A DNA stretch of 64,000 nucleotides from an uncultured Parabacteroides sp. (GTDB lineage Bacteria; Bacteroidota; Bacteroidia; Bacteroidales; Tannerellaceae). The stretch spans positions 4,761-68,760 of the forward strand of contig CAKUZF010000008.1 in NCBI GenBank assembly GCA_934718155.1, given 5' to 3'. Numbering within the stretch: position 1 is the first letter of the stretch; every line of letters begins with the position of its first letter. Below, in pieces: positions 33,001 to 36,000 of the stretch. A program made the position numbers.

Positions 33001-36000
33001 CATCGTGATGACGGCAGGCAACTGGGCCTACCTCTTTGGCGAAGCCGACGTGAAATACCAAAACATCCAGCTGCAATCCGAGCAGATCGAGATGAACATG
33101 GATAGCAGCGTGGTGTATGCCAAGTTCGGCCTCGATTCCATCGGGCAGGAGTTTGGCTACCCGCTCTTCAAGGAGGGCGAGCAGGAATATGAGTCGAAGA
33201 CCATGCGCTATAACTTCGGCTCGAAGAAAGGCTACATCACCGACGTGATCACCCAGCAGGGCGAGGGCTACGTCACCGCGGGACGCACCAAGAAGATGGA
33301 GGGCGACATCCTGAACATGGTAGGCGGACGCTACACCACCTGCGACGAGCATGAGCACCCGCACTTCTACATCAAGATGACCCGGGCGAAGGTGCGCCCC
33401 AACAAGAACATCGTGACCGGCCCGGTCTATCTCGTCATGGAAGACGTTCCCCTCTACCCGATCGGACTGCCGTTCTGCTTCTTCCCCTTCTCGAGCACCT
33501 ACTCATCGGGTATCATCATGCCCACCTTCGGCGACGAGTCGTCGAGAGGCTTCTTCCTGCGCGACGGTGGCTACTACTTCGCACTGAGCGACTACATCGA
33601 CCTGGCCGTGACGGGCGAGATCTACACGAAGGGATCGTGGGGACTCGCCGCCAAATCGGGCTATAAGAAACGCTACAAATACTCCGGCTCCTTCAACGCC
33701 TCCTACTTGGTGACCAAGACGGGCGACAAGGACTTGCCCGACTACAGCCTCTCGAAAGATTTCCAGTTGAGATGGTCGCACACGCAAGACCCGAAGGCGA
33801 ACCCCTACCTCTCCTTCTCGGCCAGCGTAAACTTCTCGACCTCATCCTACGACCGAAACAACCAGAACAGCTACTATGCCCAGTCGGGCAGCTATGCGGC
33901 GGTGAACCAGAACACGAAAAGCTCTTCGATCAACATCACGAAGCGCTTCCCCAACAACCCCTTCACCATCTCGGCCAACATGAGCATCAACCAGATCACG
34001 CGCGACTCTTCGATCGCCGTCACCCTGCCCAACATGACCATCACCATGAGCCGCATCTTCCCCTTCAAGCGGAAGCACGCCGTGGGCAAGGAGCGCTGGT
34101 ATGAGAAAATCGCGATGAGCTACTCAGGAACCCTGAGCAACAGCATCACGACCAAGGAAGACAAGCTCTTCAAGTCGAACCTGGTGAAAGACTGGAGAAA
34201 CGCCATGCAGCACAGCATCCCCGTGAGCGCGACCTTCCAGCTCTTCAAATACATCAACATATCGCCCTCGTTCAACTACAAGGAGCGATGGTATACCAAC
34301 AAGGTTGAGCAGGCCTACGACCCGCAAAGGCAAGCCGTTGTGGCACGCGACACCACCTACGGCTTCTACCGCGTCTACGACTATAGCGGGTCCATCTCGG
34401 CCTCGACCACGCTGTATGGCTTCTTCAAGCCCCTGCCCTTCCTGGGCAAGAAGGTGGAGATGATTCGCCATCGCATGGAGCCTTCGGTTTCGCTCAGCGC
34501 AGCCCCCGACTTCGCCTCCAACCATTTTGGCTTCTACCAAACCTTCGTCTATCAAGACGCCAATGGCGAGGATCACGAGTACACCTACTCGCCCTTCGCC
34601 CAAAACATGTATGGCGTGCCCAGCAAAGGCAAGCAGGGTAGCGTGAGCTTCTCCGTCAACAACAACATCGAGATGAAGATCCGCTCCGACAGGGATTCAA
34701 CAGGGTTTCGCAAGATCAGCTTGATCGACAAGCTCTCGATGAGCATGAGCTACAACATGGCCGCCGACTCCTTCAAATGGAGCGATTTGAACATGGACCT
34801 ACGCTTGAAGCTATCGAAGAACCAGATCCTGAACCTCAAGGGCACGTTCGACACCTACACCTACGACGAAAACGGGCGCCGCATCGATGTGCCCCGCTGG
34901 AAGGCAGGCAAAGGAATCGGCCGCCTGAAATCGACAAGCACCAGCTTCTCCTACACCTTCAACAACGACACTTTCAAGAAACTGTTTGGAGGTGGCGACA
35001 GCGACTCGAAGACGAGCGCAGCGGCCAACAACAATGCGCCCACCGACCCGACCGACCCGCAATCGGAGGGCACCAACGAAGAGAACACCGAGAATAAGGG
35101 CGGCCGCCTGCTGGGCAAAAAGAAGTCTTCGGGCGAGACCGACGAAGACGGCTACATGGTCGTGAACGTTCCGTGGAGCCTCTCCTTCAGCTATGGCCTG
35201 GCATTAAGCTACGGAGAATTCGACAGGGAAAGACGAGAGTTTAAGTATAGGCTCACCCACTCCTTGAACTTCAACGGCAACATCCAGCCGACCAAGAACT
35301 GGCGTATGAACTTCAATGCGACGTATGATTTCGACAAGCATAAGATCTCTTATATCACCTGCAGCATCACCCGCGACCTGCACTGTTGGAACATGTCGGC
35401 CAACTTCGTTCCGATTGGCCGCTTCAAATCCTATACCTTCAGTGTAGCGGTCAGCTCGTCGCTGCTCAGAGACCTGAAGTACGACAAGCACAGCAACTAT
35501 CGCGACGCACAGAAGTGGTACTAAATCCACACCCCTCTCGAAGAGGCAAAATTCATCGAACAGACGGGCTAAAAAAAAACGACGGGCAACGGCGTAAATT
35601 TCGTTGCCCGTGAAAATTTATTTCGTTGCCCGTGAAAATATATTTCGTTGCCCGTGGAAATTTATTTCGTTGCCCGTCAATTTTTACGCCGTTGCCCGTC
35701 AAAAATTAGGGCTGTCGCCCAAGGCATTTTCAAGCGAAATACCCAGGAGCGACAGCCCCGCCTCACACTCATACTTCGGCCACTTTTCTTACAACAGAAA
35801 TCGCTTCGTTAAGCCCTCGAAAGCGTCGATGCGACGATCGCGGAAGAAGGGCCACCAGCGACGCACCTGCTCGCTGCGCAACTTATCCACCTCGACAACC
35901 TGCACGGCCTCTTCGTTGTTGGGCAGCGTAGCCAACAGCTCGCCCTGCGGGCCAGCCACGAAGCTATTGCCCCAGAACTGGATGCCATTGGTCTGGCCCG

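What the first reader, a model, noticed from the sequence alone, without database searches (positions are those of the whole stretch)
35582..35700. Strictly 22-bp-phased repeat array bounded by 14-bp inverted repeats, with a second copy set at 54611-54654
Five CGTTGCCCGT boxes sit exactly 22 bp apart, about two helical turns, so all lie on one DNA face. The spacers are A/T-tract sequences of the kind that bend DNA. The array is framed by GACGGGCAACGGCG and CGCCGTTGCCCGTC. The same 17-nt core recurs as two phased units 19 kb away in inverted orientation. Both sites lie between convergent gene ends (lptD-like/aguB and pmbA/panB), and the first unit doubles as an intrinsic-terminator hairpin. The pattern resembles an iteron or minisatellite inside a miniature inverted-repeat element, similar in spirit to the BrickBuilt/MITE elements of Porphyromonas. 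It could equally be an oligomeric protein-binding array.
Basis: seen in the sequence. Interest (0 to 1): 0.6.

Follow-up and report, generated by a model that had tools for sequence, protein, structure and literature searches.

The report
Hairpin-capped 22-bp repeat arrays, Parabacteroides
The phased repeats are real and belong to an apparently undescribed family of short, hypervariable repeat arrays that sit after genes at many places in Parabacteroides gut bacteria; they look like transcription terminators in which one half of the hairpin has been copied several times.

Summary
Five CGTTGCCCGT cores lie exactly 22 bp apart, with one inverted copy in the same register, and a second array lies 19 kb away.

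It is not a local accident. A metagenome scan found 44 arrays with the same core and period at unrelated intergenic sites in Parabacteroides-like contigs. Their common anatomy is 3-7 direct units plus an inverted "cap" exactly one period away. The cap usually has an A/T run on its outer side.

At this locus, 26 strain contigs carry 17 alleles with 3-6 cores. Site 2 has 2 or 3 canonical units. Two related species have either no spacer or an ordinary terminator hairpin in this slot.

Best reading: a dispersed minisatellite built on an intrinsic-terminator hairpin. The cap is one arm and the direct units are reiterated copies of the other arm. Copy number changes by slippage or unequal exchange.

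It resembles BrickBuilt, BOX, SPRITE, MIRU and BIME, but fails each family's defining features. It is not a replication iteron.

Two things remain unexplained: the near-invariant 22-bp spacing despite very diverse spacers, and how the arrays spread. A core-binding protein is therefore not excluded.

The parts
35571..35579 (+). A9 run immediately outside the cap. It reads as U9 on the - strand RNA, directly after the cap hairpin.
   Evidence: The run length varies from A7 to A9 among strains. An A run precedes 12 of 14 upstream caps in other family loci.
35580..35591 (+). Cap: the inverted 12-mer CGACGGGCAACG, the complement of the direct unit CGTTGCCCGTCG. It starts exactly 22 bp before the first direct core.
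   Evidence: It pairs with unit 1: -17.3 kcal/mol on the - strand and -19.1 kcal/mol on the + strand.
35602..35699 (+). Five direct 22-bp units. Cores CGTTGCCCGT lie at 35602-11, 35624-33, 35646-55, 35668-77 and 35690-99, separated by 12-nt A/T-run spacers.
   Evidence: The number of cores is 3-6 in other strains of the same species, with 17 alleles in 26 contigs.
35581..35700 (.). The whole element as bounded by the perfect 18-nt inverted repeat GACGGGCAACGGCGTAAA / TTTACGCCGTTGCCCGTC.
   Evidence: I19. These arms pair in the minimum-free-energy fold of the whole spacer on both strands, z-scores -4.4 and -4.0.
35709..35758 (-). A separate, unique hairpin (GGGCTGTCGC...GCGACAGCCC) followed by UAAUUUUU on the - strand. 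It is aguB's own proximal terminator and not a member of the repeat family.
   Evidence: -35 kcal/mol, z -4.8. It is conserved among strains.
54611..54642 (-). Site 2: two canonical units with cores at 54611-20 and 54633-42. Eight of ten other strain contigs have three.
54501..54598 (-). Site 2 tail: about five diverged units still in 22-bp register. Cores are CGACGGCCGT, CGATGGGCTT, CCATCACCAT, CTACGGCCGC and CTATTTCTCA, each followed by a G+T run.
   Evidence: The same tail unit types recur at other loci such as L152, L167, L176, L195 and L121.
54653..54664 (-). Site 2 degenerate cap (ATACGGGTGT in the array's orientation). It no longer forms a stable hairpin.
   Evidence: The fold gives z -0.16 (+ strand) and -0.68 (- strand).

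Best explanation
This is one locus of a dispersed, non-coding repeat family found in Parabacteroides-like gut Bacteroidales. Each copy is a strictly 22-bp-periodic array of direct units. A unit has a 10-12-nt core, C(G/A)TTGCCC(G/A)T(CG), and a 10-12-nt A/T-run spacer. One end, sometimes both, carries a single inverted core in the same register. The cap and its neighbouring unit form a 10-12-bp G+C-rich hairpin. The outer side of the cap usually carries a run of T (or A on the other strand). The capped end is therefore built like an intrinsic terminator, and the direct units are reiterated copies of the other arm plus loop, since one period equals arm plus loop. The arrays sit in the slot after gene ends where relatives have a plain terminator. 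I infer that they terminate or 3'-stabilise transcripts from the flanking genes. Unit number and order change quickly by replication slippage or unequal exchange, making each locus a VNTR. Shown: the family, its anatomy, its intergenic 3'-end location, the hypervariability and the hairpin energetics. Inferred: termination activity, the slippage mechanism, and whatever moves or seeds the arrays at new sites (unknown).
For: Family and anatomy:
- 55 metagenome stretches contain three phased cores, and 44 of them are true members at unrelated loci.
- L091, a Parabacteroides sp. MAG, carries one.
- Arrays read as runs of direct units capped by an inverted unit at the start or the end.
- The cap starts exactly 24 nt after the last direct core, or 20 nt before the first, in 36 of 37 cases.
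- 15 of 23 downstream caps are followed by at least 5 T in 8 nt, and 12 of 14 upstream caps are preceded by at least 5 A in 8 nt.

Location:
- No long ORF overlaps any array.
- 31 of 39 flanking ORFs of at least 150 aa read towards the array: 13 of 17 on the cap-distal side and 18 of 22 on the cap side.
- The window holds only housekeeping genes.

Same slot in relatives:
- In one related species, lptD and aguB have overlapping stop codons.
- In another, a 48-nt spacer holds an ordinary hairpin plus T run.

Energetics: the cap hairpin is -17.3 kcal/mol and is followed by CG+U9 on the - strand.

VNTR behaviour:
- 17 alleles in 26 contigs, with 3-6 cores and mosaic unit order.
- Site 2 has 2 or 3 units.
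- Variable alignment columns: spacers 45%, cores 13%, flanks 7%.
Against: - A terminator needs only one pair of arms. The model does not explain why every core stays intact, or why spacing is 22 bp in 149 of 150 adjacent core pairs while spacers are very diverse.
- 8 of 23 downstream caps lack a T run.
- The site 2 cap is degenerate and does not fold, yet its units still vary in number.
- At site 1, aguB already has a strong terminator of its own before the array, and there is no U tract on the lptD side.
- Positions 2 and 9 of the stem are not kept complementary: 13 G.T and 5 A.C pairs.
- Gene orientation shows a 3'-end preference but no preference relative to the cap.
- No transcript data were available.
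Confidence: 0.55

Rival explanations
1. DNA-level protein-binding arrays (iteron-like in mechanism). A sequence-specific Parabacteroides protein recognises the 10-12-bp core and oligomerises along roughly one face of the helix. Selection acts on the core and on the two-turn spacing, not on the spacer sequence.
For: - Spacing is 22 bp in 149 of 150 adjacent core pairs (one at 21, none at 23). Of the 149, 88 were forced by the search pattern, which leaves 61 free pairs at 22 bp against 1 at 21 bp.
- The spacers contain slippage-prone A/T runs and are very diverse: 165 distinct units were collected. The flanking A run, by contrast, does vary in length among strains, A7 to A9.
- The inverted cap and the diverged tail units keep the same register.
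- The same core is used in at least two spacer lineages and in several species.
Against: - No candidate protein was found, and no protein family recurs next to the arrays.
- Core conservation in the metagenome set is partly an ascertainment effect, because the search pattern required it.
- Within a species, cores (13% variable columns) are no better conserved than the unique flanks (7%).
- Tail units let the core decay while keeping the spacer.
- A location after gene ends is unusual for regulators.
- Tandem duplication of a 22-bp unit gives a fixed period without any selection.
Confidence: 0.2
2. A non-autonomous mobile element (MITE, or REP/BIME-like) moved in trans by a transposase. The core would be the transposase-binding or cleavage site, and the hairpin and terminator features would be side effects.
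For: - There are many copies at unrelated sites and in several species.
- Site 1 has a perfect 18-nt terminal inverted repeat bounding a 120-bp non-coding element.
- The slot is filled in this species but empty or different in two close relatives.
- Discrete unit and spacer types are shared between loci.
- In two independent assemblies, different DNA abuts the cap exactly at the A run.
Against: - There is no clear target-site duplication.
- The extra DNA at site 1 includes unique sequence outside the array.
- Most loci have a cap at one end only, so they lack a terminal inverted repeat.
- No transposase lies in the window or recurs near arrays.
- There are no copies on plasmids, phages or viral contigs.
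- No IS with matching ends was identified. IS5/BrickBuilt ends occur only at chance level.
Confidence: 0.15
3. An RNA-level platform. The 3'-UTR carries 3-7 copies of A(C/U)GGGCAA(C/U)G or its complement. These would bind an RNA-binding protein or a small RNA, or the array would be processed into roughly 22-nt RNAs.
For: - Flanking genes mostly read into the arrays, so the arrays are probably transcribed as 3'-UTRs.
- On the strand that carries the U tract, wobble-compatible G.U pairs outnumber A.C pairs 13 to 5 at the two variable stem positions.
Against: - There is no Rfam match.
- Single units are not hairpins: there is no covariation between the two flanks of a unit.
- A fixed 22-nt spacing is not a known requirement of bacterial RNA-binding proteins.
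- No expression data were available.
Confidence: 0.07
4. An incidental local duplication of a terminator arm, found only at these two sites.
For: None beyond the look of the single locus.
Against: 44 further arrays at unrelated loci, in several assemblies and species. Both sites also show extensive allelic variation.
Confidence: 0.01

Closest known systems
BrickBuilt minisatellite/MITE of Porphyromonas gingivalis (PMC4596501)
   Same: It occurs in Bacteroidales and is strictly intergenic. It is a tandem repeat of about 22-23 nt that expands and contracts between strains. There are tens of copies per genome, it is predicted to form stem-loops, it often lies next to terminators, and it has no Rfam match.
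   Different: BrickBuilt has 23-nt units without spacers. [quoted passage not shown] BLAST finds it only in P. gingivalis and P. gulae. Here the units are 22 bp with a conserved core and a variable spacer, there is no leader or tail, the ends are copies of the unit itself, and the sequence is different.
BOX and SPRITE elements of Streptococcus pneumoniae (as summarised in PMC10969869; details of BOX modules from my own knowledge)
   Same: BOX is modular, with terminal modules that pair with each other and a variable number of internal units. SPRITE is a dispersed repeat that looks like a Rho-independent terminator. Both are intergenic, non-coding and multi-copy.
   Different: They occur in a different phylum and have no sequence similarity. 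BOX units are about 45 nt. Neither is described as a reiterated half-hairpin in a fixed 22-bp register.
REP/BIME elements of Proteobacteria (PMC3733652; BIME-2 expansions from my own knowledge)
   Same: They are high-copy extragenic elements that lie mostly after genes. They cluster in direct and inverted orientation, vary in number at a locus, and have proposed roles in termination and mRNA stabilisation. Their cores are conserved while discrete linker types vary.
   Different: Each REP is itself a 20-40-nt palindrome with a GTAG or CGTC tag (for CGTC REPs: stem of 8-9 bp, loop of 4-5 nt). Here a single unit is not a palindrome. Only the cap plus one unit pair, and no RAYT link was found.
MIRU-type dispersed VNTRs of Mycobacterium tuberculosis (my own knowledge)
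   Same: It is one repeat family present as short tandem arrays at many intergenic loci, and each locus is polymorphic in copy number between strains.
   Different: MIRU units are 40-100 bp, lie inside operons and often overlap small ORFs. They have no hairpin cap or terminator-like ends.
Plasmid replication iterons such as the 22-bp iterons of R6K and pPS10 (my own knowledge)
   Same: They are direct repeats with a period of about 22 bp, a conserved core and less conserved flanks, and sometimes an inverted copy nearby.
   Different: Iterons lie in one origin next to a rep gene, an A+T-rich unwinding region and DnaA boxes. Here there are tens of chromosomal sites after housekeeping genes, no rep gene, and no copies on plasmids.

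Membership tests
Minisatellite / VNTR | Head-to-tail repeat with a unit of about 10-100 bp | tested here: met
   Period 22, 5.0 copies, TRF score 152.
Minisatellite / VNTR | Copy number differs between strains at the same locus | tested here: met
   Site 1 has 3-6 cores and 17 alleles in 26 contigs. Site 2 has 2 or 3 canonical units.
Intrinsic (Rho-independent) terminator | G+C-rich stem-loop followed directly by a U tract, downstream of a gene | tested here: met
   At site 1 on the - strand there is a 10-bp stem of -17.3 kcal/mol followed by CG+U9, downstream of aguB. Of 37 family caps, 27 have the outer T or A run. The 10-nt loop is longer than the 3-8 nt that the simple scan allows. The feature is not met at site 2.
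Intrinsic (Rho-independent) terminator | Transcripts actually end there | not testable with these tools
   No transcript data were available.
BrickBuilt (P. gingivalis) | 23-nt tandem repeat without spacers | tested here: not met
   The unit is 22 bp with a core-plus-spacer structure. The definition is taken from the paper.
BrickBuilt (P. gingivalis) | [quoted passage not shown] | tested here: not met
   The flanks outside the units are not conserved between loci. The terminal-repeat motif occurs only at chance level in the window, and none lies next to an array.
MITE | Terminal inverted repeats | tested here: inconclusive
   Site 1 has a perfect 18-nt inverted repeat. It is made of the unit itself, and most family loci have a cap at only one end.
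MITE | Target-site duplication and filled versus empty sites | tested here: inconclusive
   Two relatives lack the array in the same slot. However, the extra DNA includes unique sequence, and no direct repeat is evident apart from A runs.
MITE | A parent IS or transposase with matching ends | not tested
No transposase lies near the arrays.
REP / BIME | Each unit is itself a 20-40-nt imperfect palindrome with a GTAG or CGTC tag | tested here: not met
   There is no complementarity between the two flanks of a unit beyond shuffled partners: observed 2.04 against 2.03. The definition is from PMC3733652.
REP / BIME | Association with a RAYT transposase gene flanked by the repeats | not tested
   No whole genome was available to search.
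Replication iterons | A single array in an origin, next to a rep gene, an A+T-rich region and DnaA boxes | tested here: not met
   There are two arrays in 64 kb of housekeeping genes and no rep gene. There are 44 further loci and no match on plasmids.
CRISPR | Repeats of about 21-48 bp, spacers of similar or greater length, and cas genes | tested here: not met
   The core is 10-12 bp, the spacer is 10-12 bp of A/T runs, and there are no cas genes in the window.

The most novel reading that the evidence does not exclude
The cores are recognition sites for a dedicated, still unknown Parabacteroides factor. This could be a domesticated transposase-like DNA binder, a nucleoid protein or a termination-linked protein. 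It would bind in a fixed two-turn register at tens of gene ends across the chromosome, forming a chromosome-wide iteron-like system. Selection on core and phase, rather than on the spacer, would then explain the near-invariant 22-bp spacing.
Probability: 0.15. Interest if true: 0.7.

Novelty: new variant of a known kind. Interest (0 to 1): 0.45.

Why it matters
- Dispersed intergenic repeat families (REP/BIME, BOX, Correia, MIRU) have proved useful as strain-typing markers, as natural terminators and regulators, and as recombination hot spots. For gut Bacteroidales, my searches of the paper library turned up only the P. gingivalis elements.
- This family gives Parabacteroides a set of hypervariable loci: 17 alleles at one site among 26 metagenome contigs. 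These could track strains in metagenomes.
- It explains contig breaks at these sites.
- It offers a compact natural system for asking how half-hairpin reiteration affects termination.
- It lets one ask whether an unknown factor reads a 10-bp core at a fixed two-turn spacing.

Tried and rejected
- **Genome-collection scan.** I used a variable gap.
- **Viral contigs.** All ten two-unit hits are unrelated repeats.
- **Plasmid and phage collections.** No match.
- **Rfam.** Nothing on the array apart from sub-threshold eukaryotic microRNA models.
- **FopS sRNA.** No FopS genes in the 12 family loci scanned.
- **Literature.** Full-text searches for the core 10-mers returned only primers. Searches for Bacteroides or Parabacteroides repeat families, RAYT in Bacteroidetes, and 22-bp repeats found no description of this family.
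- **Each unit is its own hairpin.** Rejected, because there is no covariation between the two flanks of a unit.
- **A gene family recurs beside the arrays.** Rejected.
- **Pairs of arrays are the two ends of a transposon.** Rejected. Arrays on the same contig are 21-45 kb apart, and in the window the two arrays are separated by housekeeping genes.
- **Orientation of the cap relative to flanking genes.** No specificity was found. Both sides read inward.
- **Compensatory changes in the cap hairpin.** Positions 2 and 9 vary by CpG-type transitions without compensation.
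Full report
**1. The observation**

- CGTTGCCCGT occurs on the + strand at 35602, 35624, 35646, 35668 and 35690, each step exactly 22 bp. It occurs once inverted at 35582-35591.
- Tandem Repeats Finder gives 35598-35708, period 22, 5.0 copies, score 152. This is by far the strongest array in the window.
- The 14-mer TTTCGTTGCCCGTG with up to 2 mismatches has 6 matches against 0.52 expected. None of 100 shuffles reached 6.
- The framing inverted repeat is 18 nt and perfect, with arms at 35581-35598 and 35683-35700.
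- Written as a 12-mer, the inverted copy CGACGGGCAACG starts at 35580, exactly one period before the first direct core.
- The second site has two perfect units on the - strand, at 54611-54620 and 54633-54642. In 22-bp register it continues as about five diverged units towards pmbA.

- Site 1: LptD_2 (32747-35524, +) and CN_hydrolase/aguB (35789-36664, -), with PAD_porph/aguA next to aguB.
- Site 2: PmbA_TldD (53172-54491, +) and Pantoate_transf/panB (55165-55986, -). An FopS small-RNA gene lies between the array and panB.

**2. Source and surroundings**

- The best named relatives of the aguB product are Parabacteroides distasonis and Parabacteroides sp., at 93-94% identity.
- Identical proteins occur on many human-gut metagenome contigs.
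- Every other gene in the window with a family match is housekeeping (gyrA, clpB, pyrBI, a class I Glu/Gln tRNA synthetase, pyruvate:ferredoxin oxidoreductase, TonB receptors); a few ORFs had no Pfam match. There is no transposase, integrase or rep gene.

**3. It is a family**

A metagenome scan for three cores C(G/A)TTGCCC(G/A)T at fixed 22-bp steps returned 55 stretches.
- Eleven are unrelated simple or coding repeats.
- Forty-four are arrays of the same kind in contigs of 39-58% G+C: 17 in assembly OBLI01, 13 and 5 in two co-assemblies, and the rest scattered.
- One of them, L159, matches the array region of L091, a Parabacteroides sp. MAG.
- The arrays lie at unrelated loci, and no protein family recurs beside them.
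- No long ORF overlaps an array.
- There are no copies on plasmids, phages or viral contigs, no Rfam family, and no description in the paper library I could search.

**4. Anatomy**

Every locus, displayed in 22-bp register, shows the same plan.
- There is a run of 3-7 direct units.
- At one end, sometimes both, there is an inverted core in the same register. As a 10-mer, it starts 24 nt after the last direct core or 20 nt before the first, in 36 of 37 cases.
- The outer side of the cap carries a T run (15 of 23 downstream caps) or an A run (12 of 14 upstream caps).
- In the lineage of the window, the array often continues beyond the canonical units as 'tail' units. Their cores have changed (CGACGGCCGT, CCATCACCAT), but their spacer GGTTT(T/A)TCACGC and the period are kept.
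- Two spacer styles exist, CGTTTTGAAAAA-like and GAAAATTTATTT-like, and 165 distinct units were seen.
- The distance between adjacent cores is 22 bp in 149 cases, 21 bp in one and 23 bp in none. Only 88 of the 149 were forced by the search pattern.
- A single unit is not a hairpin. Complementarity between its two flanks equals that of shuffled partners.

**5. Dynamics**

- At site 1, 26 contigs of the same species carry 17 different alleles. They have 3, 4, 5 or 6 direct cores, with units gained, lost and reordered.
- Among the five-unit alleles, 45% of spacer columns vary, against 13% of core columns and 7% of the unique flanks.
- Site 2 has three canonical units in eight of ten other contigs, and two in the window and two others.
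- Several metagenome contigs are orthologues of site 2 in related lineages. They keep the array but with different units.
- Core variation is almost entirely G/A at positions 2 and 9, that is, transitions at the two CpGs.

**6. The same slot in relatives**

- In a species whose aguB product is 94% identical, lptD and aguB abut with overlapping stop codons and there is no spacer.
- In another, at 94-95% identity, a 48-nt spacer holds an ordinary unique hairpin plus T run.
- P. distasonis has a different neighbour, recQ.
- The 265-bp spacer of the window species holds the array and a second, unique hairpin. It is therefore lineage-specific and occupies a terminator slot.

**7. How it most likely works**

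- On the - strand, the cap and the nearest unit form a 10-bp hairpin of -17.3 kcal/mol, followed by CG and nine U. This is the build of an intrinsic terminator. On the + strand the same hairpin is -19.1 kcal/mol, but no U tract follows it.
- Over the whole spacer, the outer 18-nt arms pair.
- One period equals one arm plus the loop. The direct units are therefore best read as reiterated copies of one terminator arm.
- Arrays lie after genes: 31 of 39 flanking ORFs of at least 150 aa read towards the array. There is no preference relative to the cap.
- I therefore read the family as terminator-like dispersed minisatellites whose unit number drifts by slippage or unequal exchange.
- Termination itself, the slippage mechanism and the means of spread are inferences.

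**8. What this does not explain**

- A terminator needs one pair of arms, not a strict 22-bp lattice with intact cores and free spacers. The A run beside the cap changes length between strains, whereas the spacers never do.
- The stem is not protected at its two variable positions, which show 13 G.T and 5 A.C pairs.
- The site 2 cap no longer folds.
- aguB has its own strong terminator before the array.
- These points keep two rivals alive: a core-binding protein acting in a fixed helical register, and a mobile element whose enzyme recognises the core. Neither could be tested here.

**9. Comparison with known families**

The family works like several known elements:
- BrickBuilt, which is also in Bacteroidales and is an intergenic minisatellite of about 23 nt with tens of copies;
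- pneumococcal BOX and SPRITE;
- BIME clusters;
- MIRU loci.

It fails the defining features of each:
- It lacks the 23-nt spacerless unit, the leader and tail, and the IS5 ends of BrickBuilt.
- Its units are not palindromes and carry no GTAG or CGTC tag, unlike REPs.
- There is no origin context, unlike iterons.

I therefore file it as a new variant of the known kind 'dispersed intergenic repeat family'. It is undescribed as far as the searchable library shows.

**10. Verdict**

It is wrong on family membership and on replication iterons. Interest is moderate. The family itself is useful and apparently new. The strict phasing is the one feature that could hide something more unusual.

Noticed in passing
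window 54955-55028 (-): There is an FopS-family small RNA gene (Rfam RF04319, 76.4 bits, above the gathering score) in the pmbA-panB spacer, about 300 nt from array 2. A 97.5% identical copy lies in L199 at 9724-9804. No FopS genes were found in the 12 family loci scanned with Rfam (L199 was not among them).
   Followed up: partly
L227 and L228 (first 55-77 nt in the array's orientation): Two independent assemblies (a Hadza sample and a MERR22 sample) have different DNA to the left of the cap instead of lptD. The breakpoint is exactly at the A run, and both contigs end there. That flank is about 80% similar to unannotated stretches on a Roseburia plasmid and a Jeotgalibaca plasmid, so it may be a conserved RNA element. 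This could be a rearrangement or insertion at the array, or an assembly artefact.
   Followed up: partly
cores of all family loci (positions 2 and 9 of C-R-TTGCCC-R-T): Nearly all core variation is G/A at the two CpG dinucleotides (with occasional C to T at position 1). This is the pattern expected from deamination of methylated cytosine, and it hints at CpG-context cytosine methylation in these bacteria.
   Followed up: no
window 54685-54751: There is an A+T-rich, near-perfect palindrome (arms of 20 nt, 95% complementary, 27 nt apart) just beyond array 2. It is 93% conserved in contig L185, which also carries an array.
   Followed up: no
window 46362-46434: There is a perfect 19-nt inverted repeat flanked by A7 and T7, between convergent flavin-reductase and aldose-epimerase genes. 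It is an ordinary bidirectional terminator of unique sequence, useful as a local contrast to the repeat family.
   Followed up: no
L091 (- strand, just after the array) = L159: Directly beside the array lie two units of a different repeat of about 22-23 bp (TTTTSCTAACTGGARAAAA). This suggests that other cores can be reiterated at a similar period in these genomes.
   Followed up: no
window 21981-22184 (+) and 5780-5812 (-): A cobalamin riboswitch lies upstream of a TonB-dependent receptor and a CbiK-like gene. A DUF805b RNA motif lies at 5780-5812, scoring 35.8 bits, just above its gathering score of 35.6.
   Followed up: no
window 6456-8258 (-), 49367-50284 (-), 63323-63955 (-): ORFs of 600, 305 and 210 aa have no Pfam match at E <= 1e-5.
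   Followed up: no
L191 7873-7990 versus window about 26170-26290: In a species about 79% identical in DNA, an array follows the orthologue of the TonB-dependent receptor gene (window 26287-28347). Synteny ends at the array. The window has no array there, only a 120-nt spacer before the next gene.
   Followed up: partly
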